Below are positions 17,864 through 59,523 of a stretch of DNA of 64,000 bases, piece by piece. The notes below the pieces were generated by a model. The model ran no database searches. It was not told the DNA's origin and was given only the letters and a program-made list of their open reading frames with translations. This DNA comes from Candidatus Saccharimonadales bacterium (GTDB lineage: Bacteria > Patescibacteriota > Saccharimonadia > Saccharimonadales > UBA4665), in assembly GCA_046350675.1 (NCBI GenBank), contig JAXLZZ010000008.1:5726-69725 (forward strand), read 5' to 3'. Within the stretch, counting starts at the first letter, position 1; each line of letters opens with the position of its first letter. The position numbers and the translations under genes are program-made.

Positions 17864-19864
17864 ATGTATTACTACTTCGTGTGGGTGCGCAGTAATCGCT
17901 ACCATGGCAGCGATCCGTTAACGTATTCGAGTGAACAAAAACTTACCACTGGTAGCGTGGTGCGCGTAGAACTGCAACGACAAGTGGTGATGGGCGTGGT
18001 GAGCGGCGTAACGACCGAGCCACGATTCAAGACCAAACCGATCACTGAAATCTTGGATATACCGCCTATTCCAGCGCCGTTACTCAAGACGGCGCAGTGG
18101 TTGCAAGCCTACTACCCTGCTCCTTTAGGGATTATCTCCCAGCAATTAATCCCCGCTTCGCTGACAGAGAAGCGACTGAAAGATACTTCGCCAACATTGT
18201 TTGATGTGCCAGATCTTTCTACATTGCCGAAGCTAACTCACGAGCAAACCGCTGCACTAGAAAAAATGACCGAGCGCGATACCTATTTACTGCACGGCGT
18301 AACGGGCAGCGGAAAAACACGCGTATATATAGAGCTAGTGGCACGAGCTATAGAAGATGGTAAATCTGCAGTTGTGCTGACACCAGAGATTAGCCTGACT
18401 TCGCAGCTGGCTAGTAATTTTGAAAGAATATTTGGCAATCGCGTGATTGTGCTCCACTCACAGCAAACACCAGCCGAGCGAGAGAAAGCCTGGTTGGCTT
18501 GCCTGCGTGCCACTGAGCCTGTGGTGGTGATCGGGCCGCGCTCTGCCCTGTTCAGCCCCGTTCAAAAACTAGGCATAATCATCCTCGATGAGGCACATGA
18601 ATCAGCCTACAAGCAAGAGCAGTCGCCGCAGTATCAAACTGTGCGCGTAGCTTCGTATTTGGCCGGCGTAACTCGGTCCAGCTTGGTGCTTGGGTCCGCA
18701 ACCCCATCTGTTAGTGACTATTATCTGGCTGAACGGAAGAAGAAGCCGATCATTGAACTGACAACTTTGGCCGCCAAAGCTGTCATCCTGAGCGAAGCCG
18801 AAGGATCTCGTACGAAAGAACAAACGGGATCTCTCGACTCAGCTCGAGATGACAGAGTTACAGTTGAGATTGTCGATAAGAAAGAATTCAGCCTATTCTC
18901 TAAGTCATCAATGCTCAGCCAGCCACTTTTGGATGCTATAAAAGCAGCTTTGTCGCGTGGCGAACAAACGCTACTGTATCTGAACCGACGCGGCACTGCC
19001 CGGATGGTGATGTGTGAACATTGTGGCTGGCAAGCTACCTGTCCACACTGTGATCTACCGCTGACGTATCATGGTGATAGTCATGAATTGCGCTGTCATA
19101 GCTGTAGCTATCACACCAACTCGCCCGGTAGCTGCCCAGCCTGCAAACATCCAACTATTATGTTCAAAACCGCGGGCACCAAGGCTGTTGCCGAAGAAGT
19201 AGAGCGATTATTCCCACAGGCAAAAGTAGCACGGTTCGACACCGACAACACCAAAGCCGAGCGCTTTGAACAGCAGTATCAAGGTATTCGCGACGGCAAG
19301 GTCGATATTCTAGTTGGTACGCAGTTACTAGCAAAAGGGTTGGATCTACCAAAACTCAGCACACTAGGAGTTATCCTGGCCGATACCAGCTTATATATGC
19401 CTGATTTCTCGGCCCAAGAGCGCACCTTCCAGCTCATCAATCAGGTGTTAGGGCGAGTGGGGCGAGGGCATGTGGCTGGACACGCCATTATCCAAACCTA
19501 CCATCCAGAACATCCGGCTTTGAAAGCGGCTATTGAGGCTGACTATCCAGCATTTTATAAGGCTGAGCTAGCGAGCAGAGAGAAATTCCTATTCCCCCCA
19601 CTCTGCTATTTGCTTAAGATAAGTGTTCGGCGCGCTTCCCTGAAAGCAACCGCGGCCGCGGCCGAGAAACTAAAGAAAGATATTCAAGAACAGGGGTATA
19701 AAGTCCGAGTGGAGGGCCCCGCACCATCATTCTACGAACGCTTTCAAAATAAGTACCAGTGGCAACTAGTAGTAAAAGCCACCGAACGCTCAGAACTCCT
19801 AAAAGTCATCGCCGGCCTACCGGCCAACTGCTCCTACGACATTGACCCGTTAGATTTACTCTAG
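17864..19864 (+). CDS. priA: primosomal protein N' (replication restart helicase PriA), carrying a 24-codon repeat-element insertion
   Basis: Walker A GVTGSGKT, DEAH box (ILDEAHES) and the Cys-rich zinc region CEHCGW..CPHC..CHSC..CPAC. Confidence 0.95.
   Translation: MYYYFVWVRSNRYHGSDPLTYSSEQKLTTGSVVRVELQRQVVMGVVSGVTTEPRFKTKPITEILDIPPIPAPLLKTAQWLQAYYPAPLGIISQQLIPASLTEKRLKDTSPTLFDVPDLSTLPKLTHEQTAALEKMTERDTYLLHGVTGSGKTRVYIELVARAIEDGKSAVVLTPEISLTSQLASNFERIFGNRVIVLHSQQTPAEREKAWLACLRATEPVVVIGPRSALFSPVQKLGIIILDEAHESAYKQEQSPQYQTVRVASYLAGVTRSSLVLGSATPSVSDYYLAERKKKPIIELTTLAAKAVILSEAEGSRTKEQTGSLDSARDDRVTVEIVDKKEFSLFSKSSMLSQPLLDAIKAALSRGEQTLLYLNRRGTARMVMCEHCGWQATCPHCDLPLTYHGDSHELRCHSCSYHTNSPGSCPACKHPTIMFKTAGTKAVAEEVERLFPQAKVARFDTDNTKAERFEQQYQGIRDGKVDILVGTQLLAKGLDLPKLSTLGVILADTSLYMPDFSAQERTFQLINQVLGRVGRGHVAGHAIIQTYHPEHPALKAAIEADYPAFYKAELASREKFLFPPLCYLLKISVRRASLKATAAAAEKLKKDIQEQGYKVRVEGPAPSFYERFQNKYQWQLVVKATERSELLKVIAGLPANCSYDIDPLDLL
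18782..18853 (+). mobile_element. 72-nt palindromic repeat element (GTCAT..CGAG / CTCGAGATGAC ends) inserted in frame in priA
   Basis: gtcatcctgagcgaagccgaaggatctcg-tacgaaagaacaaac-gggatctctcgactcagctcgagatgac. It has the same ends as the elements at 22265, 36120, 36505 and 59463. It starts on a codon boundary and encodes VILSEAEGSRTKEQTGSLDSARDD. Confidence 0.7.
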
Positions 19865-22264: not shown

Positions 22265-22347
22265 GTCATTTCGAACGCATGTGAGAGATCTCGGCAAGCC
22301 CGTGTGGACCCCGAGAGATTTCTCCCAGCTTCGCTACTCGAAATGAC
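22265..22347 (-). mobile_element. 83-nt ORF-less palindromic repeat element (reverse orientation)
   Basis: gtcatttcgaacgcatgtgagagatctcgg...ccgagagatttctcccagcttcgctactcgaaatgac. The gagaaatctc-type half is on the minus strand. It ends 9 nt from the stop codon at 22357-22359. Confidence 0.7.
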
Positions 22348-22356
22348 AGTGTGATA

Positions 22357-23028
22357 CTACTGTTGAGGAGATGGACCAGCTGGTGGCTGCTGCCCAGGAA
22401 ATTGCTGCTCAGGTGGCTGTTGATACTGCTGAGGGGCAGCTTGAGGCTGAGGCGGCTGGTATGGTTGCTGTGCTGGCTGTTGTTGAGGGGTAGCAAACTG
22501 ATCCTGTTGCGGCTGTTGATACTGGGGTTGTGGCTGTTGATACTGCTGAGGGGCAGCTTGAGGCTGAGGCGGCTGGTATGGTTGCTGTGCTGGCTGTTGT
22601 TGAGGGGTAGCAAACTGATCCTGTTGCGGCTGTTGATACTGGGGTTGTGGCTGTTGATACTGCTGAGGGGCAGCTTGAGGCTGCTGAGCTGCAGGCGCTG
22701 GTGCTTGTTGCACGTTGGCTTGGCTAGCCGCCAGAATCTGCGGTGCATTCTGAGCTACTTCGGCTTTTAGCTTGTCGAATTCTTGTTGCACGATCTCCTT
22801 ATAGTTCGGAAAATTGGTCTCTAGCCACTTAAAGGCACCGGCATCATCTTTTGCTTCAAAATAGCGCTCAAATTCATCGAGCTGTTCGTTTGTCATTTGG
22901 TCTGCTAGGCGCACGCCTACACGCATCTCTAACGTCTCATAGATGTGCTTTAGAAAGCTGTTCTTCTCTGTATCAGGCAAGCCTGCCAATCCGAGTTCCT
23001 GTAGTAAGTTATTATCTATCTTTAGCAT
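22357..23028 (-). CDS. hypothetical protein with globular N-terminal domain and Q/P-rich repeat tail
   Basis: 223 aa. The C-terminal half is QAAPQQYQQPQPQYQQPQQDQFATPQQQPAQQPYQPPQP repeated. Confidence 0.8.
   Translation of the reverse strand: MLKIDNNLLQELGLAGLPDTEKNSFLKHIYETLEMRVGVRLADQMTNEQLDEFERYFEAKDDAGAFKWLETNFPNYKEIVQQEFDKLKAEVAQNAPQILAASQANVQQAPAPAAQQPQAAPQQYQQPQPQYQQPQQDQFATPQQQPAQQPYQPPQPQAAPQQYQQPQPQYQQPQQDQFATPQQQPAQQPYQPPQPQAAPQQYQQPPEQQFPGQQPPAGPSPQQ
22415..22683 (-). repeat. 117-nt (39-codon) tandem repeat, about 2.3 copies, apparently identical
   Basis: ggctgttgatactgctgaggggcagcttgaggctg recurs at 22415, 22532 and 22649. Confidence 0.85.
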
Positions 23029-31055: not shown

Positions 31056-31170
31056 ATTTGGCACCGTGCTATTTTCCCAGGGGTGAACCCCAAGTATTGT
31101 AACCGCTACGAGGCTTAACTGCTGTGTTCGGTATGGGAACAGGTGTTACCCTCGCGCCATGGGCACCAAG
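31056..31170 (-). rRNA. rrf: 5S ribosomal RNA
   Basis: The reverse complement reads cttggtgcccatggcgcgagggtaacacctgttcccataccgaacacagcagttaagc...gggaaaatagcacggtgccaaa. This aligns with the bacterial 5S core (CCGAAC..AGTTAAGC). The ends are approximate. Confidence 0.9.
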
Positions 31171-31797
31171 CACGGCTTTCGCCGTGCAATTATCAATTAT
31201 CAATTCGCAATTTACAATAAATTACCAATTATCAATTAACCATTGCCGCGAAAATCATGCTTGATGACCAACTCGGTGCTTATGAGATAGCTTGTTAACA
31301 AACGGGTGCTAATGCACCAATAACTAGTCAATTAAACACTTCTGATTCCAGAACACTGCATCTGTGTGCTCTATGGATATTTACAGCGAGGATCGGATGC
31401 GAGCTGTATGAAAATACTGCTCGGACCGAACCGGAACTGCAAATTCCGTAGAGTGCCAGAAACTGTTAGGAAAGACGGCTATGCCGGCTTTTTAACAGTG
31501 GTGCAATGTTCTGGTCGTAAAAAGTCAATGCCTCTATTAGTACGCTTCGACTACATACGTTACCGCACTTCCATCTTGCGCCTATCAACCTGATCGTCTT
31601 TCAGGGAGGTCATAGGGAAATCTAATCTTGAAGGAGGCTTCGCGCTTAATATGCTTTCAGCGCTTATCCCGTCCGCACGATAGCTACTCAACAATGCTCT
31701 TGGTAGAACAATTGATACACCAGCGGTGCGTTCAACCCGGTCCTCTCGTACTAGGGTCAACTCTTCTCAAATTTCCTTGCGTCCACAGCGGATATAA

Positions 31798-31831
<34 letters not shown>

Positions 31832-31859
31832 ACGTACCTCTTTAACCGGCGAACAGCCG

Positions 31860-31890
<31 letters not shown>

Positions 31891-32198
31891 AGATGAGCCG
31901 ACATCGAGGTGCCAAACAGCGCCGTCTATGTGAACTATTGGGCGCTATAAGCCTGTTATCCCCGGCGTAACTTTTATCCGAAAGCGCTGCCGATACCACA
32001 CTCTTGTACAAAAATGTACTGACAGCGGAAAACTTACTCCTACTTTCGTACCTGCTTGGATTGTACTCCTCACAGTCAAGCTAGCTTATGCGTATACACT
32101 ATCACTACGATTTCCATCCGTAGTTAGCTAACCTTTGAACGCCTCCGATACTCTTTAGGAGGCAACCGCCCCAGTTAAACTACCCACCAGACACGGTC

Positions 32199-32381
32199 CC
32201 AGAACCAGAAATCACACACAAACTATCTCTCTCAAGTCATTCCAATCTTGAATTGGAAACTAGTAATTTTGAGTGCCGATGGCACACTTAATATACTGGG
32301 TCCTGAATCAAGTTCAGGATGACGGAAAAAGGCTTATATGCACTTTGTGGTCCTGGTAAGAACAAGATCATAACAAGGGTG
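32199..32381 (-). other. 23S insertion 1 (about 140 extra nt, between E. coli-equivalent CCACCAGACAC.GTCC and GGGTGGTATTTCA, domain V near the L1-stalk side)
   Basis: About 183 nt here against about 40 nt in E. coli between the same conserved flanks. No ORF. Confidence 0.6.
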
Positions 32382-33401
32382 GTATTTCACGGATGACTCC
32401 ACCTAGGCTAGCGCCTAAGCTTCAAAGTCTCCCACCTATCCTACACATGTTATAACCCGGCTCAATGCCAAGCTGTAGTAAAGCTGCACGGGGTCTTCTC
32501 GTCCTGCTGCGGACAGACGGCATCTTTACCGTCAATGCACTTTCACCGAGCTCTTCGTCGAGACAGTGCCCATATCATTACGCCATTCGTGCGGGTCAGA
32601 ACTTACCTGACAAGGAATTTCGCTACCTTAGGACGGTTATAGTTACCGCCGCCGTTCACCGGGGCTTCAGTTTGAAGCGTGAACCTCTCCCCTTAACCTT
32701 CCGGCACCGGGCAGGCGTCAGCCCCTATACATCCACTTTCGTGTTAGCAGAGACCTATGTTTTTGGTAAACAGTTGCATGGGCTCCTTAGTTGCAGCCCC
32801 ATCACGCTACCCACAAAGTGGTTGCGCCATGAAGCAAGCTTCTAGGATTAAAAATCCAAGAAACTCGTTATATCATCACGCTCAGTTCCTTTCTGAGCAC
32901 TGTGATGGGGCAGGCCTTATTCCGAAGTTACGGCCGCTTGTTTGCCGAGTTCCTTGACGAAGAATCACTCGTACACCTTGGTCTTCTCGACCTGAGCACC
33001 TGTGTCGGTTTGCGGTACGGATAGTGTAATCCACGCGTTAAATTGCTTTTCTAGTCAGTACTTTGACCGGAATCGAACCTAATGGTTCTTTCATTCGTAG
33101 GCATTTCTCCTACTTAGACGGGTATAACCATGAACCCGCTCCGGCGAATATACCGCGCACATCTAACAAAACTACACTAGTACGGGAATATTAACCCGTT
33201 GTCCATCGCCTACGCTACGCGCCTCGGCTTAGGACCGACTAACCCTGGGACGATTACCGTGGCCCAGGAAACCTTGCTCTTTCGGTGGGCAGGATTCTCA
33301 CCTGCCTTATGGTTACTCATTCCAGCATTCTCACTTGATACCGCTCCACCGGACCTCGCAGTCCGACTTCAACGCTGATATCAACGCTCCTCTACCACTG
33401 A

Positions 33402-33572
33402 CGCTACGCACTCCGTGCTGAGCTTAATTGGCAATTAGCGATTTACAATTTACGATGAATTATCGATTAGCTATGAGCCATGATGCGACTTAATCGCTCC
33501 TGGCTAATTGCTAATTCATTGGTCATCGCTAATTGCTATTAGCTAATTGCGTTCAGCACAAAGTGCGTAACG
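33402..33572 (-). other. 23S insertion 2 at the helix 45 position (a classical IVS site), about 150 extra nt
   Basis: The closing stem pairs cgctacgcactccgtgctgagc with gcgttcagcacaaagtgcgtaacg. The interior is AT-rich 'aatt' words. The flanks match E. coli ACCGAAG.. and GGTAGGGGAGCGTT. Confidence 0.7.
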
Positions 33573-34087
33573 CCAATCCATATCTTCGGTGCTATGCTTA
33601 GCCCCGTTACATTTTCCGCGCGAGATCTCTTGACGAGTGAGCTGTTACGCACTCTTTAAATGAATGGCTGCTTCTAAGCCAACATCCTCGTTGTTTAAGA
33701 AATCTCACCTCGTTTCCCACTTAGCATAGACTTAGGGACCTTAGATGATGGTCTGGGCTGTTTCCCTTTTGAGCGACGAGCTTAGCCCCGCCGTTCTAAC
33801 TGCTGTAGTTCCACAGATGGTATTCGTAGTTTGTCAAGGGTGGGTAATCGTAAGACCCCCAGTCCGAAACAGAGCTCTACCCCCATCTGCTACCGTACAA
33901 CGCTAGCCCTAAAGCTATTTCGAGGAGAACCAGCTATCTCCGAGTTCGATTGGCATTTCACCTCTAACCACAGGTCATCCGGGCATTTTGAAACATGCTA
34001 CGGTTCGGCCCTCCACGCAGTTTTACCTGCGCTTCAGCCTGCCCATGGTTAGGTCACCCGGTTTCGGGTCTATTTATTGCTACTAAC

Positions 34088-34250
34088 GGGGTCTTATGGC
34101 TACCGGAATTGTCGTGAGAACTAAAATCAGTTGCCTGAAATTGCGGAAAATTTTTGAGGCGTATTGCATAATACGTCTCGGCAAATTTTACACAATTTAC
34201 AGACTCTGATTTTTGCTCTCGCGGTTCAATTCAGGCAGTCATAAGACCCC
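34088..34250 (-). other. 23S insertion 3, a long hairpin of about 145 extra nt (domain II, E. coli CUUAACUGGGCGUUAAG hairpin position)
   Basis: ggggtcttatggctaccgg pairs with (c)ggcagtcataagacccc. The interior has nested inverted repeats, with apical hairpin gaggcgtattgcataatacgtctc. Confidence 0.65.
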
Positions 34251-34605
34251 TTCGGCCTATTCAGCCTCGCTTTCACTACGCCTACGACAAATGTCTTAAG
34301 CTTGCAACAACAAATAACTCGCTGGATCGTTCTACAAAAAGCACGCCGTCACCAATAAATTGGCTCCGACTCCTTGTACGCACATAATTTCAGGATCTAT
34401 TTCACTCCCCTTCCGGGGTTCTTTTAACCTTTCCCTCACGGTACTTGTACACTATCGATCGTAAGATATATTTAGCCTTGGAAGGTGGACCTTCCAGATT
34501 CAATCAGGGTTTCACGTGTCCCGACCTACTCGACACTAGAAATGATAAAGTTCGTAACATTTGGCGTACCGGGCTATCACCGTCTTTGGCCAGACTTTCC
34601 AGACT

Positions 34606-34905
34606 GTTCTGCTCACATTACGAATTTCTTACTTTATGAGAATGGTGGTAGCACTCTCCTCCTTATGCAGGTTGCCGGCCGAAACCGGCCGCCCACAAAA
34701 GGGTATTTCTAGGTCACAACCCCTGGCTTGCATTCAGCTACCACTTTATTCAAGTGTCGCTTCACTCAAGAATTTTCAATTTACAAATAGCAATTTACAA
34801 ATAATTGACCAATGATCATTGATAATTCAATGAAAATTGAACATTGAGAATTGTTAATTGTTTGCTTGAAAAGTCCAGTGCGAAGCACTACTTGAAAGCA
34901 AACTA
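34606..34905 (-). other. 23S insertion 4, about 265 extra nt in domain I (between GCGAGCGAAC..-type and UCUGGAAAG-type conserved blocks)
   Basis: About 300 nt here against about 35 nt in E. coli. It contains caatttaca twice and a GC hairpin gccggccgaaaccggccgc. No ORF. Confidence 0.6.
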
Positions 34906-35629
34906 GGTTTGGGCTCATCCGCGTTCGCTCGCCACTACTTACGGAATCATTGGTTATTTTCTCTTCCTCTGGGTACTAAGATGTTTCAGTTCCCCAGCTT
35001 ACCGCTCTCCGATTCTATATATTCAAACCGGCGCCACTGGACATAACTCCAGCGAGGTTTCCCCATTCGGACATCTTCGGATCAAAGCATAGTAGGCTGC
35101 TCCCCGAAGCTTATCGCAGCTCCTCACGTCCTTCATCGGTATCTTACGTCAAGGCATTCTTTATGCGCGCTTGAGTAACTTTTTACGTTATATATGCACC
35201 AACCCGAAAGGATTGATACATACAGTGCAATTGACTAGTTATTGGTGATCCCAAAATATTTTTCATTTTACAGTTATCATTTACCGAATTAGTTGCCAGT
35301 TCCCATTTGTCATTTCTGAAAATGGTAATTTGAACAATAATTGGTTAATGAGAATTGCGTAAATGGTAATTGTTTAGGCCAATAGCCGTTTGTCTAATAG
35401 ATATACATACGAAAAAAATGTATATCTCAAATTGCTTATCTCTGAATCAATCTGCAAAAATTGATTCAATTTCTTCTATGAATTGTTAAGTTGCGAAACT
35501 CAAGAGGTTGTATCTGTTGACGCACATAAAAGTGCCACCCATCTATAACCCTTGAAGCTTGAGTTTACGATTGATTCCGCCTGGTGTATCCCCTACGGGC
35601 ATCTACCTAAACTCAAGCGACTCCAACTA

Positions 35630-35658
35630 GTTTAGCAAAAATAACAGAGGCGGTCAAC
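35630..35658 (-). promoter_or_regulatory. candidate promoter for the 23S-5S unit
   Basis: Minus strand TTGACC-17 nt-TAAACT, about 445 nt upstream of the 23S 5' end. It has the same architecture as the candidate 16S promoter. Confidence 0.4.
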
Positions 35659-35760
35659 ACCTAGATGCTGTCAAACTTGCTACAACTTATCACCTGGCAG
35701 CGCGCGATTTCTGAAAGAATCATTAACTTTTGCTGGATTTTCTAGACGTCTTATACGTAG

Positions 35761-35964
35761 GTGGCGTATCGTAACGGTATGGACAGGCCATCAGACGAAC
35801 TCGCCCAACTCACACAAGCTGTGCACGACCTAGAAGCACTGGTGCGTGAGGAGTTGGTTGCCCTGCAATACGAAGTTATGGGCACCCGTGATGCGCTAAG
35901 CGAAGAATTGGCAACTCATATAGACTCACTCAAACGCCAGATACGCATGCAGCGTCGGGGCTAA
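35761..35964 (+). CDS. hypothetical small coiled-coil-like protein (GTG start)
   Basis: ORF only; weak. Confidence 0.3.
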   Translation: MAYRNGMDRPSDELAQLTQAVHDLEALVREELVALQYEVMGTRDALSEELATHIDSLKRQIRMQRRG

Positions 35965-35975
35965 TCAGCACTTCT

Positions 35976-36005
35976 GTCATTCCGAGCCTAAGCGAGGAAT
36001 CTCTC
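35976..36005 (+). mobile_element. left-end copy of the GIY-YIG element (gtcattccgagcctaagcgaggaatctctc)
   Basis: Homologous to the left end at 36120-36148 and followed by the same spacer type (..accccg/c..) and gene start. Confidence 0.6.
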
Positions 36006-36023
36006 TATACCCCGTATTGAGTC

Positions 36024-36080
36024 ATGAAAACATACTGGATTTACATTATGTCGAATCGTGCCAGAACTGTGCTTTATATT
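36024..36080 (+). pseudogene. 5' fragment (19 codons) of a GIY-YIG gene, truncated by another element end
   Basis: atgaaaacatactggatttacattatgtc... has its first 29 nt identical to 36166-36194 (MKTYWIYIMSNRARTV). It is interrupted at 36081 by tgtcatctcgag. Confidence 0.65.
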
Positions 36081-36119
36081 TGTCATCTCGAGTCCCTCCG
36101 TCCTTTCGAACCTCCCTCC

Positions 36120-36454
36120 GTCATTTCGAACGAAGAGAGAAATCTCTCCAAACCCCCTAAGGACTATGAAAACATACTGGATTTACATTATGTCTAACCG
36201 CGCGAGAACTGTTATGTATATAGGTGTAACCAACAATTTGGAAAGACGAGTTTTCGAGCACCAGTCCGGAGCCATTTCTGGTTTTACAAAACTCTACAAC
36301 TGTACTGATTTGGTCTATTACGAAGAGGCTGGTTCGCCTTTACCTGCAATTGAACGTGAAAAAGAGCTTAAGAAATGGTCGAGGAACAAGAAAGACCAAC
36401 TTATTCGCGACTTTAATCCTCTTTTGAGAGATCTCTCAGTATCTTCGAGATGAC
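36120..36454 (+). mobile_element. 335-bp candidate autonomous element: 29-bp imperfect terminal inverted repeats flanking a GIY-YIG nuclease gene
   Basis: The left end is gtcatttcgaacgaagagagaaatctctc. The reverse complement of the right end is gtcatctcgaagatactgagagatctctc. They match at 22 of 29 positions, including the outer 11 nt (with 1 mismatch) and the inner tctctc. Confidence 0.6.
36166..36453 (+). CDS. GIY-YIG nuclease family protein (COG2827/UPF0213-like, 95 aa)
   Basis: MKTYWIYIMSNRARTVMYIGVTNNLERRVFEHQSG..GFTKLY....LVYYEE......AIEREKELKKWSR.KK..LI...NP..RDL. The track's longer ORF (from 36058) reads through repeat sequence. Confidence 0.85.
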   Translation: MKTYWIYIMSNRARTVMYIGVTNNLERRVFEHQSGAISGFTKLYNCTDLVYYEEAGSPLPAIEREKELKKWSRNKKDQLIRDFNPLLRDLSVSSR

Positions 36455-36504
36455 ATACCTAATTATTTCGGCCGTCCCCCTGTAATTTCGACCCCTCCTC
36501 TTCT

Positions 36505-36582
36505 GTCATTTCGAGCAAAGCGAGAAATCTCTTGCTACTAAATAACTCAGTTGCTACAAATCCCTTGTGCCTTCGAGATGAC
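36505..36582 (+). mobile_element. 78-nt ORF-less repeat element
   Basis: gtcatttcgagcaaagcgagaaatctct...ttcgagatgac. It ends 9 nt from the stop codon of the giant gene (36592-36594). Confidence 0.65.
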
Positions 36583-36591
36583 AAACCGTAC

Positions 36592-39500
36592 TTACTCGAC
36601 GATGAAGTAGTCGAAGGTATACGTGGTATTAGGCGCCAGGGTCTGACCGGTGCTGAGCATGAAGTCGTTGACCGTCTTGCCCTTAGGATAGATGCGGGAG
36701 TTGACGCTGTTATCATCCTGGCCGGTCAGCAACACTTTAGGCGTCTTGCCGAAGACCTTGCTGAAGTCCACCTTGGTCAAGTCGCCAGCACTGACCCCTG
36801 TTGCACCGGTGGTAATGGTAATTGTGCCCGAGGTGTCATTACCGTCGATATTGACCGCCGCACCACTGCCGGCTGCCGTCAGGATATTACCCACCGGCGC
36901 CCCGCCCTTGGTAATGATATGTCCACTGACTTCTATATCAGCAACCTTAAGCGTGGTAACTGTTAGCGTGCCTTCAATATCGGCGTCACCTGTAACTGTT
37001 AGGGCAGCTATGCTTGCGCTATTGGTTACGGTTAAGCTGCCGGTGGTTGCAGACCCAGCTACAGATAAATCTCCGTCTATCGCAGCGTTACTTGTTACAT
37101 TAAGCGATTGAAGCGTGCTGGTCCCTGAAGCGTTTAAACCACCGCTAAAGCTGGCAGTGCCACTGTTCGAGATATTAGTGCTATTAAGTTGAGCGGTACT
37201 AAAGCTGGTGTTATAGCCATTTAGCTTGTTGACGATGGCCTTTTCACCGCCCCATAGGTAGCCATAGACACTGAACCAATCGGGTTGCGGGTTACCGTTG
37301 CTGTCGTTTGTTGGCGTTAGATTCGCAGGTAAATATTCTGATATTACGCCGGTACGTACCCCCGCCGCCCCGTCATTCCATTCGTAGTTAAATATAGGAG
37401 TTGCAGATATTTCACCCAGAATGCGATCAAGATTTACTTCGTCTATCTGGTTGATATTGTGCTTGTAGTTTTGTGAGCTAGAACAGTTAGATAGTATGTT
37501 TGAGCCATTCCTACACACGGGATTACCTGCTCCGCCAGCAACTAGACTAGTCTGAATTATGCCCGTAACGATTAAGTTTTGACCGACATTAGTATCAGCT
37601 CCGGAGTTTAGGCTACCCACTGCGGTAACATAGCCTGCGGCAATTATCCAGTTATCAGAGAAAATACCAGATCCTGCCCTCAGGTAAGTCGAAGATTTGA
37701 TGTAAGTACCGTCATTATACAGGTAAGCACCGGATTGGCCGCTAAGCCAAAATGAACCACCCAAAAACAGTCCGGTATTAGAGTACAGGCCATAGGAGTT
37801 GTGCGAACCGAGGTACCAACTCGTCTGATCGCCGCCGCCCAAATCTGTACGACCCGGATATATGTATCCAGCCGTTCGCAAACCACCAGATCCAAGATAT
37901 GCAACATGGGTTCCACCGGTGTTATTTGCTAAGAACTGTATCCAGCCAGATTTAGTGTATAACTCGTTGTAGGTGCCGCCACCATAAGCTATGTTTTGAC
38001 TAGCACTCTGTAAATATGACCCTGTGTTTATAGCGCCCGTGGAACTTATAGTGCTGGAGCCAGTTACAGCGCCAGTCACGGCTAGGGTTGATGAAATAGC
38101 CGCTGTGCCGGAGACTTGCAGTGTGGCGCCACCGCTGGTCACTGATGAGCCGATACCGACTTCTCCCGTTGAAGCAACAACTAAGCGTCGTGTCAGCGAG
38201 GTGTCAGAAGTTAGTGATTTGGTAGCAATATACACATTACCCGCACCACCGCCAGCGCTATTAGCCTGTATATCAGTACCGATGCTGGCGTATCTTCCTA
38301 TGTTGGTGTCGGCAACAGCGCCAAGCACTACTTCACCGCCGCCGTTAACTGTAAAGCTATTATTAGTGAGCAAGATACGAGCGTCCTTTTGGCCGACTGT
38401 GGTCGAAGTCGTTGCTGGGCCAGTAACAGTTAGCGTATTACCAAGACTCGTTGTGCTGGTAACTGCAAGTGTACTCTGTAGCGTGGTTGCCCCGGCTACG
38501 ACGAGAGCATCATCGGTCTTTAGGGTGTTGCTAGTAGAGCGATATAGATTGGTATCTGTACCGAATGTTATGCCAGTACTAGCTGTTCCGCCAGTTCCTC
38601 CGAGCTGTAATGAGTAAGTGTCAGCTGCCCCAATATAGATACCGACGTCACTAGATCCAGCTGTCTGAGGGTCAACATATATTCCATAATTATTGGTTAT
38701 TGTACCTCCACCGCTATTTATTGCAGCCTGGGCATATAGACCGTACGCTGTACTAATTGTGCCTGTGCTGCTATTTTGTATAACACCGTTTACTCCGTAA
38801 GCATTACTAATACTTCCGGTATTTGAATTAGTGATTATCCCGCGCACACCGTAGCCAGAACCCAAAGTAGCACCGGCAACAGTGTTTTGGGTATTTCCGT
38901 AAATACCAAACAACCTAGAATTTGCATTCACATTTGTGTTGCCTACAGTTGTATTACTTGTGAATGATACAAAGTCTGTCAGAGATCCAGGTGCGCTTGC
39001 TGGCGACACTGTCAAATTATTTGATGTCATTGTATTTACACCAGAAATTGCAGTACTTGTAAGCGATAAGGTGTTGCTTGATCCAGATACTGTTATGCCA
39101 GCTTGTCCAGTGATTGAGCCCACCACAGATAAAGAGTCGTCTGTTTTTAATGTATCCGCCGCGGAGCGGTAAAGGTTCGTATCACCGCCAATTGTTATGC
39201 CGGTGTTTGAGCCAGTTGATGAAAGTTGCAATGTTGTTTTACCGCCAGCGTTGCTTACGGTCAAAGCCGAGCCAGTACTGACCGTACCAGAAGCCGAAGT
39301 GAGTGTTAGAGCGGCGCTGCCACCTGACTGAATGCTCAAGTAACCTGTGCTGCTTAGACTTCCGTCAGATAAAGTGGTGCTGCCAGCACCAACCACCACA
39401 CCGCCGAGGAAATAACCCTGGAAGAAACGGTTACTTTGGGTTGCGTAATCGTTAGCGCTGGTAACAGCACCGATATTCTGAGCCGTGTATTTAGTGATCG

Positions 39501-42500
39501 TCGCATTTCCTGTGAATCCAGCCGTCGTGCCATAACTGACCGCCGGACTAATTGTAAGTGTGGTCGTGCCACCACCCGCGGTGATGCGAGTATAGTAATC
39601 TTGTCCGCTACCGCCGGTGTTATCTACAAAAATAATATCGCCATTCGCAAAAGCGCCGGCCGCAGACAGTGTAATAGTTGTAACATTTGTGCCTCCCGTG
39701 CCGCTGGTTGTACCCGTAGTGCCAGTCGCCACCGCATTGGCTACCAGGTCGCCGTTAGCAATCAGCTTATTGTTGCTGGTTGTATCAGCTGTAAATAGTG
39801 CATTGCCGCCGGAATTTTGAATCTGGAATTTAGTAGCGCTATTGCCCCCAGCGGCACCGCCTATCATAAGCGCATCGTCGGTGGTTAAAGTGTCTGCTGC
39901 ACTGCGGTAGAGGTTGGTGTCGCCACCGATAGTGATGCCTGTGTTACTGCCAGTTGAGCTGAGTTGTAGTGTTGTCTTACCGCCGTTGTTGCTGATATCC
40001 ACGGCCGACCCCGTGCCAACCGTTCCCGAGGCGGAGGTCAGCGTCAATTGACTGCTGCCGCCCGACGCGACTGCGAGCGCGCCATTGGCTGTGAGGTTAA
40101 GTGAGGTGCCAAGGCTAACGGTATTTGAGCCACCTTGTAGCGTAAGGTTACCAATAGTGGTGCTAATAGTGCTGGCTGCGCCAGCCGTGACAGTGATAGC
40201 GCTCGCGCTCACGAGACTGATAGCTCCGGCTGCGCTGTTGCCAATGCTCACGGTGCCGGTGCTTGTACCGGTGTTGATATTAGTGTTGTTGTTGCTGTTA
40301 TTGTTGAGCTGGACGGTGCCGCCGGCGATTGTGCTAGCACCGGTAATTGTCGCGCCGCCAGCCGAGACAGTCAGGCCACCACTGGTAACGGTCGCGCCGC
40401 TAGCTACCGTCAGTGTACCGGCAATCGTAGAACTACCGATGCCATTGACAGTTAGAACGCCTGCTTGAACACTATCACCTGCTTCGTTGACGCTGTACTT
40501 ACTGCTGCCATTGACCTGTAGATTGATCAAGTTGCCGGTAAAACCATTGGCAGCGTTAATCACCGTGTTGCCGGCGTAGGTCAAGGTGGTGCCAGACTCG
40601 CTCAGACCAGAGTCTGCAACGGTGTTAGAAGCAGTAAACTTGGCCAATTTGCCCGGGGTACCGCTACCCAGCACGCCGCCGCCCGTACCTGCACAGTTGG
40701 CCAGAGTCAGCAGACAGACGGTGTCACTAGAGCCACCGGCGATACTCGGGAGCTGGATGGTGGCGTTACCGGTGCCGGTAGGATTCAAGCCCTGTAGCAC
40801 GACTAGTCGTGAGGATGTGGAGTTGGCCAGATTCAAGCTACCTGTGACCGATGCGCCAACGCCAAGCGTCAGTCCGCCTGCTCCCTGCACCGCCACCGTA
40901 CCCGTAAAGTTAGCGCTGCTACTGATAGTCTGGCCGTTGATTAGACCGGAAGTGATAGTTCCGCTGCCGGCATTGATGTTGGCGTTGTTGGTGACAATAC
41001 CCCCATTGGCATTGAGTTGACCAGTCAAGGTGGTGGCACCGGTTACGGCTAGGGTTGATGAAATAGCCGCTGTGCCGGAGACTTGCAGTGTGGCGCCACC
41101 GCTGGTCACTGATGAGCCGATACCGACTTCTCCCGTTGAAGCAACAACTAAGCGTCGTGTCAGCGAGGTGTCAGAAGTTAGTGATTTGGTAGCAATATAC
41201 ACATTACCCGCACCACCGCCAGCGCTATTAGCCTGTATATCAGTACCGATGCTGGCGTATCTTCCTATGTTGGTGTCGGCAACAGCGCCAAGCACTACTT
41301 CACCGCCGCCGTTAACTGTAAAGCTATTATTAGTGAGCAAGATACGAGCGTCCTTTTGGCCGACTGTGGTCGAAGTCGTTGCTGGGCCAGTAACAGTTAG
41401 CGTATTACCAAGACTCGTTGTGCTGGTAACTGCAAGTGTACTCTGTAGCGTGGTTGCCCCGGCTACGACGAGAGCATCATCGGTCTTAAGCGTGTCGGCA
41501 GCTGAGCGGTAGAGGTTGGTGTCAGTGCCGATAAGCAGTCCCCCCGAAGAGCCAGTGGCCAGCACGCTCAAGCGGCCGTTGGAGTCAATGGTTAGTCTCT
41601 GAGCACCGGCGGTCTCGTCGGATATCGAGAAGGTACCGGCACGCGAACCAACCACAAACTGTCGACCCGTTCCTGACGCAGTATCACTGAAGTACATGCT
41701 GGCAGCGTTCCAGACTACAGAGCTGTCGCCCGTCAGTTCAATCGGGCCGCCCTGGACACCAAACTTGCTGCCACCGCTATAGCCACCGACCGATAAGTAG
41801 CCACCGATGGCGGCGTTGTTCGTAACAGATAGGGCCGTACCTGCTGCACTGAAGGTATTGGCAGCACTAAAGTTGTTGGCTTGGTTCAAGTAGGCCACAT
41901 TATTGAGGGTGCCTGCGGTGTTGATGTTGGCCCCACCCAGCTGGATGGCGCCGGTGGCGTTGAAAGTGCCGGTAGCCGTTATCACGCTGCCACTTTCACT
42001 CAACAATGAGTCACCAATCGTCCCAGCACCGGTGAACTTAGCAATCGTGCCGGTAGTACCGCTGCCGGTGATGCCACCGCCACTGCCAGCACAGTTGCCC
42101 AGGGTGACAAGACAGACATCATCAGTTGAGCCACCGGCGATAGTCGGAATACGAATGGTGGCATTACCAGTACCACTTGGGTTAAGACCCTGAATGATAA
42201 CCTGTCGTGAAGATGATGAGTTTGCTAGGTAGAGACTGCCGGCAGTGGTACCTGGTGTACCAATACTGACACTAGCTCCTTGGACAGCCAGGGTGCCGGT
42301 GAAGACAGGGCTACTGACAATGTCGAGCGTATTGCTGCTGAAGCCACCACCAGCGGTGCCGCTGACCGTACCAGTCAGATTACCGCTGCCGGTGAAGCTC
42401 AGGCTAGTGTTACCTTGGGCGGCGGTGCCGCTGGTAGAACCGTAACTCACATTAAGCGTTGTGCTACTACCAAGAGCTACACTACCACCGCCGGTCAAGC

Positions 42501-54418: not shown

Positions 54419-54495
54419 TGGTGGGCGATGAGGGATTCGAACCTCCGACCTCGTCATTATCAGTGACGCGCTCTAACCAACTGAGCTAATCGCCC
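54419..54495 (-). tRNA. tRNA-Ile (anticodon GAU), CCA encoded
   Basis: The reverse complement is gggcgattagctcagttggttagagcgcgtcaCTGATAAtgacgaggtcggaggttcgaatccctcatcgcccacca. It forms a cloverleaf with an acceptor of 7 bp. My fold leaves one A-C mismatch in the T stem. Confidence 0.9.
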
Positions 54496-54651
54496 TGGCT
54501 TTTGTTTTACAAAAGCAATTATCAGATAGCAATTTTCATTTTTCAAGTATGGCCAGCTGGTGCTGATACTATTATTTCAAAAGCCAGCGGCTTTTGTCCT
54601 ACATTGGTAAATGAGAATTGTAAATTGTTAATTGCTTTACGTAGTAAAGCT

Positions 54652-54728
54652 TGGTGGAGACACGGGGACTCGAACCCCGGACCCCCTGCTTGCAAAGCAG
54701 GTGCTCTAGCCAACTGAGCTATGTCCCC
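54652..54728 (-). tRNA. tRNA-Ala (anticodon UGC), CCA encoded
   Basis: The reverse complement is ggggacatagctcagttggctagagcacctgcTTTGCAAgcagggggtccggggttcgagtccccgtgtctccacca. The G3-U70 identity pair is present. Confidence 0.93.
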
Positions 54729-56460: not shown

Positions 56461-57925
<1,465 letters not shown>

Positions 57926-59462: not shown

Positions 59463-59523
59463 GTCATTCCGAGCGATAGCCGAGGAATCTTGTACGAGAT
59501 CTCTCCACTGCGGTCGAGATGAC
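59463..59523 (+). mobile_element. 61-nt ORF-less repeat element
   Basis: gtcattccgagcgatagccgaggaatct-tgtac-gagatctctccactgcggtcgagatgac. It ends 9 nt from the gyrA stop codon (59533-59535). Confidence 0.7.

What the first reader, a model, noticed from the sequence alone, without database searches (positions are those of the whole stretch)
18782..18853. Palindromic repeat element inserted in frame inside priA
- A 72-nt copy of the element starts exactly on a codon boundary (codon 307 of priA).
- It adds 24 residues (VILSEAEGSRTKEQTGSLDSARDD) and leaves the 666-aa ORF open.
- The insertion sits just before the conserved V.IVD segment that precedes the zinc-binding region, so it probably lies in a surface loop.
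- An essential replication-restart helicase tolerating a selfish repeat is unusual. It also gives a dated, checkable insertion event.
Basis: seen in the sequence. Interest (0 to 1): 0.65.

Follow-up and report, generated by a model that had tools for sequence, protein, structure and literature searches.

The report
Selfish hairpin repeat inside priA
A 72-base palindromic repeat, of the same kind as the Rickettsia and Neisseria hairpin repeats that travel with a small GIY-YIG nuclease gene, sits in frame in a floppy linker of the replication-restart helicase PriA of a wastewater Saccharibacterium; this is a known phenomenon seen here in a new lineage, at a site that relatives have filled, swapped and emptied repeatedly.

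Summary
Window 18782-18853 is a 72-nt palindrome that starts at codon 307 of an intact 666-aa priA and encodes VILSEAEGSRTKEQTGSLDSARDD. Contigs from four independent studies span it.

It is two inverted copies of a TGTC/CGTC-tagged REP-type repeat, the superfamily of Neisseria dRS3/NTS and Rickettsia RPE-4/-6, now called Ssn-related motifs. The same termini flank a 95-aa GIY-YIG gene at 36120-36454. They also form intergenic dimers at 22265, 36505 and 59463. A related dimer sits in a 23S rRNA hairpin tip.

Of 105 Saccharimonadales priA loci, 89 have a fixed short loop here and 16 carry inserts, all in this one loop. AlphaFold2 models residues 307-329 as disordered coil between the two helicase lobes.

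The site turns over quickly. PriA proteins 95% identical carry different repeat subfamilies, and 90-93% identical ones carry a remnant or nothing.

In-frame REP/RPE dimers of 20-30 aa in replication and repair genes were described in 2000-2013, and the nuclease link in 2025. This is therefore a new member of a known kind. The new points are the phylum, the gene and the recurrent occupancy of one linker.

How the repeat moves, and whether it is translated, were not tested directly.

The parts
17864..19864 (+). priA (primosomal protein N'), 666 aa, intact ORF that hosts the insert
   Evidence: ORF listing. Pfam PriA_3primeBD, DEAD, Helicase_C, Zn_ribbon_PriA and PriA_C. PDB PriA E 1e-90. Foldseek 6dcr_A E 1.8e-51, TM 0.79-0.82.
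18782..18853 (.). 72-nt palindromic repeat dimer (two inverted TGTC-tagged arms plus spacer), read in frame as residues 307-330
   Evidence: Sequence. Hairpin z -5.1 as RNA and -3.0 as DNA. Absent from 89 of 105 orthologous loci. Spanned by contigs of 4 studies. Whole-dimer copies with unrelated flanks on other contigs.
18782..18810 (+). Left arm, GTCATCCTGAGCGAAGCCGAAGGATCTCG
   Evidence: nhmmer profile hit E 1.8e-4. 26/27 identical to the left arm in L162. Metagenome depth 58-191 against 5-9 for the priA flanks.
18811..18824 (.). 14-nt spacer (loop of the long hairpin), not conserved between orthologues
18825..18853 (-). Right arm; reverse complement is GTCATCTCGAGCTGAGTCGAGAGATCCCG
   Evidence: nhmmer E 1.8e-5. 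25/26 identical to L162. 21/29 identical to the left arm.
36120..36454 (+). Full-length unit: left arm, 95-aa GIY-YIG nuclease gene, right arm. Likely autonomous partner of the 72-nt dimer.
   Evidence: Sequence. Arms found by nhmmer at 36119-36147 and 36427-36455. The same architecture surrounds homologues in two other genomes.
36166..36453 (+). GIY-YIG ORF (Ssn-like). Its last codons ...RDLSVSSR and the TGA stop are encoded by the right arm.
   Evidence: Pfam PF01541 E 1.4e-16. Translation. 262 small homologues of about 95 aa.
35976..36081 (+). Truncated second unit: a left arm plus the first 19 codons of the nuclease gene, followed by arm fragments at 36082-36119
36505..36582 (.). Intergenic 78-nt dimer of the same family
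22265..22347 (.). Intergenic 83-nt dimer of the same family
   Evidence: (I1).
59463..59523 (.). Intergenic 61-nt dimer of the same family
   Evidence: (I1).
32236..32323 (-). 88-nt dimer of a second, NTS-like subfamily with perfect 7-bp stems. It lies inside a 137-nt insertion at a hairpin tip of the 23S rRNA gene.
   Evidence: arm z -3.3; 137 nt in place of 2 model positions.

Best explanation
The 72 nt are a dimer: two inverted copies of a TGTC/CGTC-tagged REP-type hairpin repeat. This is the superfamily that includes Neisseria dRS3/NTS and Rickettsia RPE-4/-6, recently renamed Ssn-related motifs (SRM). The dimer is the short, gene-less counterpart of the unit at 36120-36454, where the same ends bracket a 95-aa single-domain GIY-YIG nuclease gene.

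- **Shown.** The dimer lies in the variable linker between the two RecA-like lobes of PriA and leaves the frame open.
- **Inferred.** It is translated as a 24-residue hydrophilic, disordered loop that the enzyme tolerates. It is selfish or neutral DNA that survived because it landed at a permissive site in the only stop-free frame.
- **Shown, history.** The linker is a fast-turnover site in Saccharimonadales. Relatives carry other subfamilies, nested or decayed copies, a remnant, or nothing.
- **Inferred, mobility.** The GIY-YIG protein is the counterpart of Ssn, which cuts single-stranded DNA a few bases 5' of the tag. In a dimer this places one cut at each outer end, one on each strand. Copying into new sites, and homogenisation of the arms, would then depend on host repair or recombination. 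Homologous recombination between related priA alleles also moves the occupied loop around.
For: **Family membership**
- The terminal motif is enriched: 8 hits against 0.16 expected.
- Eleven arms in the window share CTGTCATYYYGARC...GAGRRATCTC.
- Whole-dimer copies with unrelated flanks lie on other contigs of the same metagenomes. The left arm is 10-20 times deeper than priA.

**Partner gene**
- A GIY-YIG ORF is bounded by the same arms, with its stop codon inside the terminal ATGACA.
- Homologues 71% and 66% identical, in two other genomes and in different gene neighbourhoods, have the same arms and the same arm-encoded ...DLS.SSR* tail.

**It is an insertion**
- 89 of 105 Saccharimonadales loci have a fixed loop of about 24 nt (21-27) between the anchors.
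- Among the 120 best PriA homologues, every repeat-like insert is in this one loop.
- Arms of this subfamily occur only in loci with an occupied site. There are 0 hits in about 1.0 Mb of empty-site loci.
- Arm density outside priA is 0.148/kb in occupied loci, 0.043/kb in empty ones and 0.034/kb in shuffles.

**Tolerated loop**
- Residues 307-329 have pLDDT below 50 and are coil between strands 296-299 and 333-338.
- phmmer against solved PriA splits exactly at the insert, 30-306 and 351-653.
- A related dimer sits at a 23S rRNA hairpin tip.

**Selection for read-through**
- All 16 occupied loci keep the frame open, although 2 of the 3 forward frames contain stops.
- Elements whose length is not a multiple of 3 (for example 80 nt in L166) are offset by the junction position.

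**Turnover**
- P0004 and P0005 are 95% identical and sisters in 100% of bootstraps, yet carry different subfamilies.
- P0008 (remnant) and P0009 (empty) are 93% identical.
- P0011 (occupied) and P0049 (empty) are 87% identical.

**Arms maintained.** Window against L162: 51 of 53 arm positions are identical, while the gene is 68.5% identical and the flanks 63-64% (P about 6e-7).

**Literature**
- PMC3733652: CGTC/TGTC tag, mostly dimers, intragenic dimers of 20-30 aa, many in replication and repair genes. Its supplement lists peptides VIPAKAGI and ...GMT, like those of P0005.
- PMC11893778: Ssn cuts ssDNA next to NTS/SRM, and NTS-ssnA-NTS looks like an insertion sequence.
Against: - The published SRM search pattern finds nothing in the window. 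This is a variant of the motif.
- Single arms of this subfamily do not fold better than shuffled sequence as ssDNA (z about 0). Their 8-nt stem halves contain two central G.A mismatches, so the small hairpin that defines REP/SRM is not demonstrated thermodynamically.
- I could not compare the GIY-YIG protein with Neisseria SsnA or with CDD cd10448. The closest solved relatives are UPF0213 proteins, at only E 2e-4.
- No target-site duplication and no conserved target sequence are visible.
- The nuclease gene is at one and the same locus in all 13 contigs that carry it. Current mobility in this genome is therefore not shown.
- There is no RNA or protein evidence that the insert is translated.
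Confidence: 0.85

Rival explanations
1. A single ancient insertion. One repeat dimer entered the priA linker once, in an ancestor, and has since been inherited, diverged, lost precisely in most lineages and passed sideways by homologous recombination. It would not have been inserted repeatedly.
For: - The right junction lies at the same nucleotide (21 nt before the downstream anchor) in 7 of 13 occupied sequences from several clades.
- Left plus right flank add up exactly to the empty-site length of 36 nt in L162, L084 and L168.
- priA is a recombination mosaic, with blocks of 65-100% identity between window and L161.
- In L162 against L163 the divergent tract extends beyond the element into both flanks.
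Against: - Occupied lineages are scattered. No bootstrap replicate groups them, while occupied/empty sister pairs have 100% support.
- Sisters 95% identical carry unrelated subfamilies at different offsets, 15 against 12 nt.
- 89 of 105 loci would need precise loss restoring the usual short (about 24-nt) loop.
- Left junction offsets vary: 10, 12, 13, 15 and 18 nt.
Confidence: 0.25
2. The insert has been co-opted. It could act as a flexible acidic linker that tunes PriA lobe movement. It could also act as a DNA or RNA hairpin inside priA that is a regulatory or Ssn-cleavage site, for example limiting recombination of incoming priA DNA.
For: - The arms are 96% conserved between lineages whose priA is 68.5% identical.
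- REPs inside genes are over-represented in replication and repair genes (PMC3733652).
- In Neisseria, NTS-flanked DNA is restricted by SsnA during transformation (PMC11893778).
Against: - 85% of relatives do without any insert.
- The encoded peptide differs completely between subfamilies, and even by reading frame (VILSE..., SHIEG..., VIPAKAG...).
- Decayed copies and a remnant exist.
- The modelled segment is disordered.
- Arm conservation is equally well explained by gene conversion from other copies.
Confidence: 0.1
3. The 72 nt are not translated. They would be removed from the mRNA or bypassed by the ribosome, so the mature PriA lacks the 24 residues.
For: The segment forms a very stable RNA hairpin (-37.7 kcal/mol). 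No RNA data contradict the idea.
Against: - There is no match to any intron or other Rfam family, only sub-threshold generic hairpin hits.
- All occupied orthologues keep the frame open and free of stops, although two of the three forward frames carry stops. That is expected only if the sequence is translated.
- RPE-decorated proteins are reported as expressed in Rickettsia (cited in PMC3733652).
Confidence: 0.03
4. Assembly artefact or chimera: a repeat wrongly joined into priA.
For: Repeats often break or misjoin short-read assemblies. Many contigs end at the arms.
Against: Independent contigs from four studies cross both junctions with 0-16 differences and no gaps. Related species carry related inserts at the same place.
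Confidence: 0.01

Closest known systems
CGTC-tagged REP superfamily (Di Nocera, De Gregorio and Rocco 2013, PMC3733652), which includes Neisseria dRS3 and Rickettsia conorii RPE-4/RPE-6
   Same: - The terminal tag is CGTC or TGTC followed by AT.
- Stem halves are 8 nt and loops are about 4 nt.
- Copies are mostly arranged as inverted dimers.
- Copies are dispersed between genes.
- Some dimers sit in frame inside genes, encode 20-30 aa, and often lie in replication and repair genes.
- P0005's insert encodes VIPAKAG...FGMT, like the R. conorii peptides VIPAKAGI and ...GMT in that paper's supplement.
   Different: - The phylum is Patescibacteria (Saccharimonadales), which is not among the five phyla listed there.
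- priA is not in their list.
- The main subfamily here has two central G.A mismatches in the stem and a TCTC tail instead of CCA.
- The same host site is reused by several subfamilies.
Ssn-related motifs (NTS/SRM) with the Ssn GIY-YIG ssDNA nuclease (Chenal et al. 2025, PMC11893778)
   Same: - A small single-domain GIY-YIG gene of about 94 aa is flanked on both sides by (C/T)GTCAT-tagged hairpin repeats.
- Those repeats are also scattered through the genome.
- The arrangement looks like an insertion sequence.
   Different: - Their degenerate SRM pattern does not match these arms (0 hits).
- They report NTS as rarely intragenic (2% in N. meningitidis).
- Nuclease activity and cd10448 membership are untested for this protein.
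- Here the right repeat supplies the last codons and the stop of the nuclease gene.
Rickettsia palindromic elements (RPE-1 and relatives; Ogata et al. 2000, from my own knowledge and as cited in PMC3733652)
   Same: A palindromic selfish repeat inserted in frame in essential genes at positions compatible with the protein fold. It adds a few dozen residues.
   Different: - RPE-1 is longer (about 100-150 nt) and is found in an obligate intracellular alphaproteobacterium.
- No sequence comparison with RPE-1 was made here.
- Recurrent occupation of one orthologous site by different subfamilies is not a described feature of RPEs, as far as I know.
REPIN/RAYT systems and bacterial MITEs (for example Correia/NEMIS, Coxiella QMITEs, PMC5896051)
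   Same: Short non-autonomous inverted-repeat elements with a single-copy protein partner. They are occasionally in frame within genes.
   Different: - The partner here is a GIY-YIG nuclease, not a tyrosine (HUH) transposase or a DDE transposase.
- The tag is not GTAG.
- No target-site duplication is seen.

Membership tests
CGTC-tagged REP superfamily (PMC3733652) | Unpaired CGTC (or TGTC/CCTC) tag at one end of each unit | tested here: met
   Of the 11 window arms in the nhmmer alignment, 10 begin TGTCAT and one CGTCAT. A further CGTCAT arm lies in the 23S insertion.
CGTC-tagged REP superfamily (PMC3733652) | Short stem-loop: 8-9 bp stem starting with A-T pairs, loop of 4-5 nt | tested here: inconclusive
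   - The layout fits, for example TTCCGAGC-CTAA-GCGAGGAA.
- Positions 5 and 6 of the stem are G.A mismatches.
- Single arms fold no better than shuffles (z -0.7 to +1.6).
- The NTS-like arm at 32294-32323 folds well (z -3.3).
CGTC-tagged REP superfamily (PMC3733652) | Units mostly paired in inverted orientation (dimers) and dispersed in many copies | tested here: met
   There are five dimers and one nuclease-containing unit in 64 kb. Extra copies lie on other contigs, and the arm is 10-20 times deeper than its flanks.
CGTC-tagged REP superfamily (PMC3733652) | Intragenic copies are in frame and encode about 20-30 aa per dimer | tested here: met
   24 aa here, and 15-33 aa for most of the related priA inserts, longer only in the nested or expanded copies of P0007 and P0035.
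Ssn-related motif, SRM (PMC11893778) | Match to the published degenerate pattern HGTCWYN(0-2)YYVSBRHN(0-5)WNVSBRGN(0-2)RNCYNB | tested here: not met
   0 matches in the window on either strand, against 0.34 in shuffles.
Ssn-related motif, SRM (PMC11893778) | Repeats flank a small ssnA-type GIY-YIG gene on both sides | tested here: met
   Seen at window 36120-36454 and in L179 and L181.
Ssn-related motif, SRM (PMC11893778) | Bound and cut as single-stranded DNA by the cognate Ssn, in one orientation only | not testable with these tools
   This needs purified protein and oligonucleotides.
Ssn nuclease family (cd10448) | Single-domain GIY-YIG protein of about 94 aa | tested here: met
   95 aa, with PF01541 covering residues 4-76 at E 1.4e-16 and no other domain. 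Homologues are 87-131 aa.
Ssn nuclease family (cd10448) | Assignment to CDD cd10448, or BLAST E below 1e-10 to N. meningitidis SsnA (NMB0047) | not tested
   Neither CDD nor the SsnA sequence was available. PDB hits are UPF0213 proteins only, at E 2e-4. NCBIfam gives no specific model.
MITE (transposase-derived miniature inverted-repeat element) | Terminal inverted repeats plus a target-site duplication, derived from an IS that encodes a transposase | tested here: not met
   Inverted ends are present. No duplication flanks any of 13 priA inserts or 4 intergenic dimers. The long partner encodes a nuclease, not a transposase.
Intron, intein or other known RNA element | Match to a curated RNA family, or intein/homing-endonuclease motifs in the insert | tested here: not met
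   Rfam gives only miRNA-precursor hits far below threshold, 22.5 bits against 99. A 24-aa peptide is too short for an intein.

The most novel reading that the evidence does not exclude
The PriA inter-lobe linker may not be merely permissive. It could be a preferred landing site, meaning that the nuclease-associated hairpin dimers integrate site-specifically, or home, into one short stretch of priA and into rRNA hairpin tips. That would make the GIY-YIG/hairpin pair a distinct class of ssDNA-nuclease-driven mobile element that colonises essential genes in ultra-small bacteria. Its arms would be kept uniform by nuclease-dependent conversion.
Probability: 0.15. Interest if true: 0.7.

Novelty: new member of a known kind. 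Interest (0 to 1): 0.4.

Why it matters
- **Range.** It extends the REP/RPE-type 'selfish DNA inside proteins' phenomenon, and the Ssn-type nuclease/hairpin pairing, to Saccharibacteria. These organisms have tiny genomes in which every insertion should be costly.
- **A natural experiment.** One 8-residue linker of an essential helicase is found empty, filled by two different repeat subfamilies, nested, decayed or reduced to a remnant among PriA proteins 87-95% identical. This gives a tractable case for asking how these repeats are gained, homogenised and lost.
- **Annotation.** It explains length heterogeneity, and odd VILSE.../...ARDD, SFRAKRGI-like or VIPAKAG... peptides, in CPR proteins. 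Such segments should be masked in alignments and phylogenies.
- **What it does not show.** It reveals no new mechanism by itself.

Tried and rejected
- **Published SRM pattern.** It gives 0 hits, so I used my own motif and an nhmmer profile instead.
- **Single-arm folding.** As ssDNA the arms fold no better than shuffles, so I do not claim the small hairpin for this subfamily.
- **Peptide searches for other host proteins.**
  - The exhaustive representative search gave 0 hits at E 0.001 or better.
  - A query this short is simply too weak.
- **RNA-level test.** Four RNA runs give no usable coverage of priA.
- **An apparent 'skips 64' joint in run X3** looked like a deletion allele. At lower stringency it has 67 divergent letters between the two sides. 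It is the P0002-like allele with a different left arm, not an empty site.
- **Multi-copy nuclease gene.** All 13 contigs carry it at the same locus next to the giant ORF. Only one strain (L174) differs to the left of the cluster.
- **Target-site duplication or conserved target sequence at the junctions.** None was seen.
- **Rfam.** Only sub-threshold generic hairpin matches for the element.
- **Supplement of PMC11893778, for the SsnA sequence.** It is not held.
- **Protein-guided codon alignment across the insert.** It was unreliable, so the arms were compared directly.
Full report
**1.

priA is an uninterrupted 666-aa ORF at 17864..19864. It has every PriA domain: the 3' DNA-binding domain, the DEAD and Helicase_C lobes, the Cys-rich zinc ribbon and the C-terminal domain. 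It matches solved PriA structures both by sequence (E about 1e-90) and by fold (6dcr_A E 1.8e-51, TM 0.79-0.82).

Codon 307 begins at 18782. The next 72 nt, GTCATCCTGAGCGAAGCCGAAGGATCTCG-TACGAAAGAACAAA-CGGGATCTCTCGACTCAGCTCGAGATGAC, encode VILSEAEGSRTKEQTGSLDSARDD.

The stretch is a strong palindrome:
- As RNA it folds at -37.7 kcal/mol, z -5.1.
- As DNA it folds at -15.9 kcal/mol, z -3.0.
- Only one of the three forward frames lacks a stop codon.

It is not an assembly artefact. Contigs from four sequencing runs of four separate wastewater and activated-sludge studies (2018-2025) cross both junctions without gaps.

**2. It belongs to a repeat family present in the same window**

- The terminal 12-mer occurs 8 times against 0.16 expected.
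- Eleven arms share CTGTCATYYYGARC....GAGRRATCTC.
- They form inverted dimers between genes at 22265-22347, 36505-36582 and 59463-59523.
- In the metagenomes that hold this organism, near-complete copies of the same dimer (75 nt, about 8 differences) lie on other contigs with unrelated flanks. The left arm is 10-20 times deeper than the surrounding priA sequence.

**3. The long form carries a nuclease gene**

At 36120-36454 the same two ends bracket a 95-aa ORF that is a single GIY-YIG domain (PF01541, E 1.4e-16). Its last residues (...RDLSVSSR) and its TGA stop codon are encoded by the right arm.

A truncated second copy lies just upstream, at 35976-36081.

Homologues 71% and 66% identical sit in two other genomes in quite different gene neighbourhoods. 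Each is flanked by the same arms and has the same arm-encoded tail. The unit 'arm - nuclease - arm' is therefore conserved as a block while its location is not.

In this species the gene is at one locus in all 13 contigs that carry it. One strain has different DNA to the left of the cluster, with the breakpoint at the end of the element.

**4. What the literature calls this**

Di Nocera et al. 2013 (PMC3733652) defined a superfamily of REP-like palindromes tagged by CGTC, often TGTC.
- Stems are 8-9 bp and loops 4-5 nt, and copies are mostly arranged as dimers.
- The superfamily includes Neisseria dRS3 and Rickettsia RPE-4/RPE-6.
- Intragenic copies are in frame, and dimers encode 20-30 aa.
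- They noted that CGTC REPs lacked a dedicated enzyme.

Chenal et al. 2025 (PMC11893778) supplied the enzyme.
- A 94-aa GIY-YIG protein, SsnA, is flanked by these repeats (NTS, generalised as SRM).
- SsnA cuts single-stranded DNA just 5' of the tagged hairpin, on one strand only.
- They remarked that NTS-ssnA-NTS looks like an insertion sequence.

The window element fits this picture in tag, dimer form, dispersal, in-frame coding and nuclease partner. Three points do not fit or remain untested:
- The published SRM pattern finds nothing here.
- The arms of the main subfamily carry two central G.A mismatches and do not fold better than shuffles on their own.
- I could not test the protein against SsnA or cd10448.

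**5. It is an insertion, in one particular loop**

- Between anchors at PriA residues 304 and 334, 41 of 43 GTDB Saccharimonadales representatives have a short spacer, 24 nt in nearly all of them (18-27).
- Over all 105 loci with both anchors, 89 are empty and 16 occupied.
- In the 120 closest PriA proteins, every repeat-like insert is in this loop.
- The AlphaFold2 model (mean pLDDT 79) gives pLDDT below 50 and coil for residues 307-329. This segment lies between the last strand of helicase lobe 1 (296-299) and the first strand of lobe 2 (333-338).
- phmmer alignment to E. coli PriA breaks exactly there.
- The peptide is hydrophilic: 9 charged and 4 hydrophobic residues out of 24.

A second essential gene shows the same logic. 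The 23S rRNA gene carries a 137-nt insertion in place of a 2-nt hairpin tip, and that insertion contains an 88-nt dimer of an NTS-like subfamily.

**6. The site has a busy history**

The DNA of occupied orthologues shows several states:
- The same subfamily as the window (L162).
- A variant with a different left arm read in another frame (L161, 89% identical protein).
- An NTS-like subfamily encoding VIPAKAGTQ...FGMT (L163).
- Decayed copies (L081, L001).
- A copy with two right ends (L168), a nested copy (L005), and one followed by a tandem GNGRGD expansion (L166).
- A probable remnant (L170).

A bootstrapped neighbour-joining tree with the loop masked gives:

| Pair | PriA identity | Sister support | States |
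|---|---|---|---|
| P0004 / P0005 | 95% | 100% | different subfamilies, at different offsets |
| P0008 / P0009 | 93% | 100% | remnant / empty |
| P0011 / P0049 | 87% | 100% | occupied / empty |

No replicate groups the occupied lineages together.

The arms are maintained far better than the host gene. Window against L162 gives 51 of 53 identical arm positions, against 68.5% for the gene and 63-64% for the adjoining codons (P about 6e-7). The spacer is unrelated.

Arms of this subfamily occur only in loci whose priA site is occupied, with none in about 1.0 Mb of empty-site loci. Overall arm density outside priA is 3.5 times higher in occupied loci. Occupation of priA therefore tracks invasion of the genome by the family.

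**7. One origin or many?**

Evidence for site preference, or for a common origin spread by recombination:
- The right junction is at the same nucleotide in 7 of 13 sequences.
- In three sequences the flanks add up exactly to the empty length.
- priA is visibly mosaic between relatives.
- In L162 against L163 the divergent tract extends beyond the element.

Evidence for several events:
- Left junctions vary (10-18 nt).
- Subfamilies differ.
- Occupied and empty sisters are interleaved in the tree.

My reading is several gains and replacements plus recombinational exchange, but the present data do not settle it.

**8. Mechanism, and what is shown or inferred**

Shown:
- Family membership.
- The nuclease-bearing partner.
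- Insertion relative to orthologues.
- Location in a predicted disordered linker.
- Conservation of an open frame in all occupied loci.
- Rapid turnover.

Inferred:
- **Translation of the insert.** The frame constraint argues for it, since 2 of 3 forward frames have stops, yet all 16 loci are open and elements of non-multiple-of-3 length are compensated at the junction.
- **Neutrality.** 85% of relatives lack the insert, and the peptides are unrelated between subfamilies.
- **Mobilisation through an Ssn-like nuclease.** It would cut ssDNA 5' of each outward-facing tag, and host repair or recombination would do the copying.

No target duplication or target motif was found. No current mobility was seen in this species.

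**9. Verdict**

This is a real feature, correctly spotted. It is an instance of a known phenomenon (RPE / CGTC-REP / SRM dimers in frame in housekeeping genes), found in a new phylum and a new host gene. The recurrent occupation and turnover of one linker is moderately interesting. Interest 0.4; new member of a known kind.

Noticed in passing
window 32236-32323, within the 23S rRNA gene at 31516-35185 (minus strand): The 23S rRNA gene has a 137-nt insertion replacing a 2-nt hairpin tip (model positions about 2238-2240). The insertion contains an 88-nt inverted dimer of an NTS-like hairpin repeat (GTCATCCTGAACTTGATTCAGGACCCAG ... TTCCAATTCAAGATTGGAATGAC). This is the rRNA counterpart of the priA loop insertion.
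   Followed up: partly
window 31516-35185: The 23S match spans 3670 nt for a 2925-nt model, about 745 nt extra. Only 137 nt are explained above. AT-rich repeats (AATTATCAATTATCAATT...) at 33426 and 34771 lie inside the gene and recur at 31188, 31220 and 54517, next to the 5S and tRNA genes. These may be further intervening sequences.
   Followed up: no
window 31056-57924: The rRNA genes are all on the minus strand but are split. The 16S gene (56462-57924) and two tRNAs (54422-54728) are separated from 23S-5S (31056-35185) by about 19 kb. That gap holds a giant ORF and the nuclease/repeat cluster.
   Followed up: no
window 36592-51375 (minus strand): A 4927-aa ORF is built from long internal repeats: 300-nt units that are 66-100% identical, several of them perfectly duplicated (families D1-D12). 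It is probably a giant surface protein. Contigs of other assemblies break inside it.
   Followed up: no
window 22413-22683: There are 2.3 perfect tandem copies of a 117-nt unit immediately next to the intergenic repeat dimer at 22265-22347.
   Followed up: no
priA, window 17864-19864 compared with L161 370-2373: Identity to the closest relative alternates between blocks of 95-100% and 65-75% along the gene. This is a recombination mosaic inside an essential gene.
   Followed up: partly
L174 1-400 compared with window 35600-35975: A strain 99% identical from the nuclease cluster onwards has entirely different DNA to its left: an unrelated ORF instead of the 23S upstream region. The breakpoint is at the left end of the element. 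It is preceded by three tandem fragments of the tag (GTCATTTCGCCCCTCCC...).
   Followed up: partly
L166 5997-6120 (PriA P0007): Directly after the repeat dimer, this orthologue has a degenerate tandem repeat encoding GNGRGDKGNGRGDVGNG... It lengthens the same loop to 78 residues.
   Followed up: no
L181 about 1900-1930: Downstream of a homologous nuclease unit of the GAGC-type subfamily lies a hairpin of the NTS-like subfamily (GGGATCCCAGCCTGCGCTGGGATGACG). The two subfamilies therefore coexist in other genomes too.
   Followed up: no
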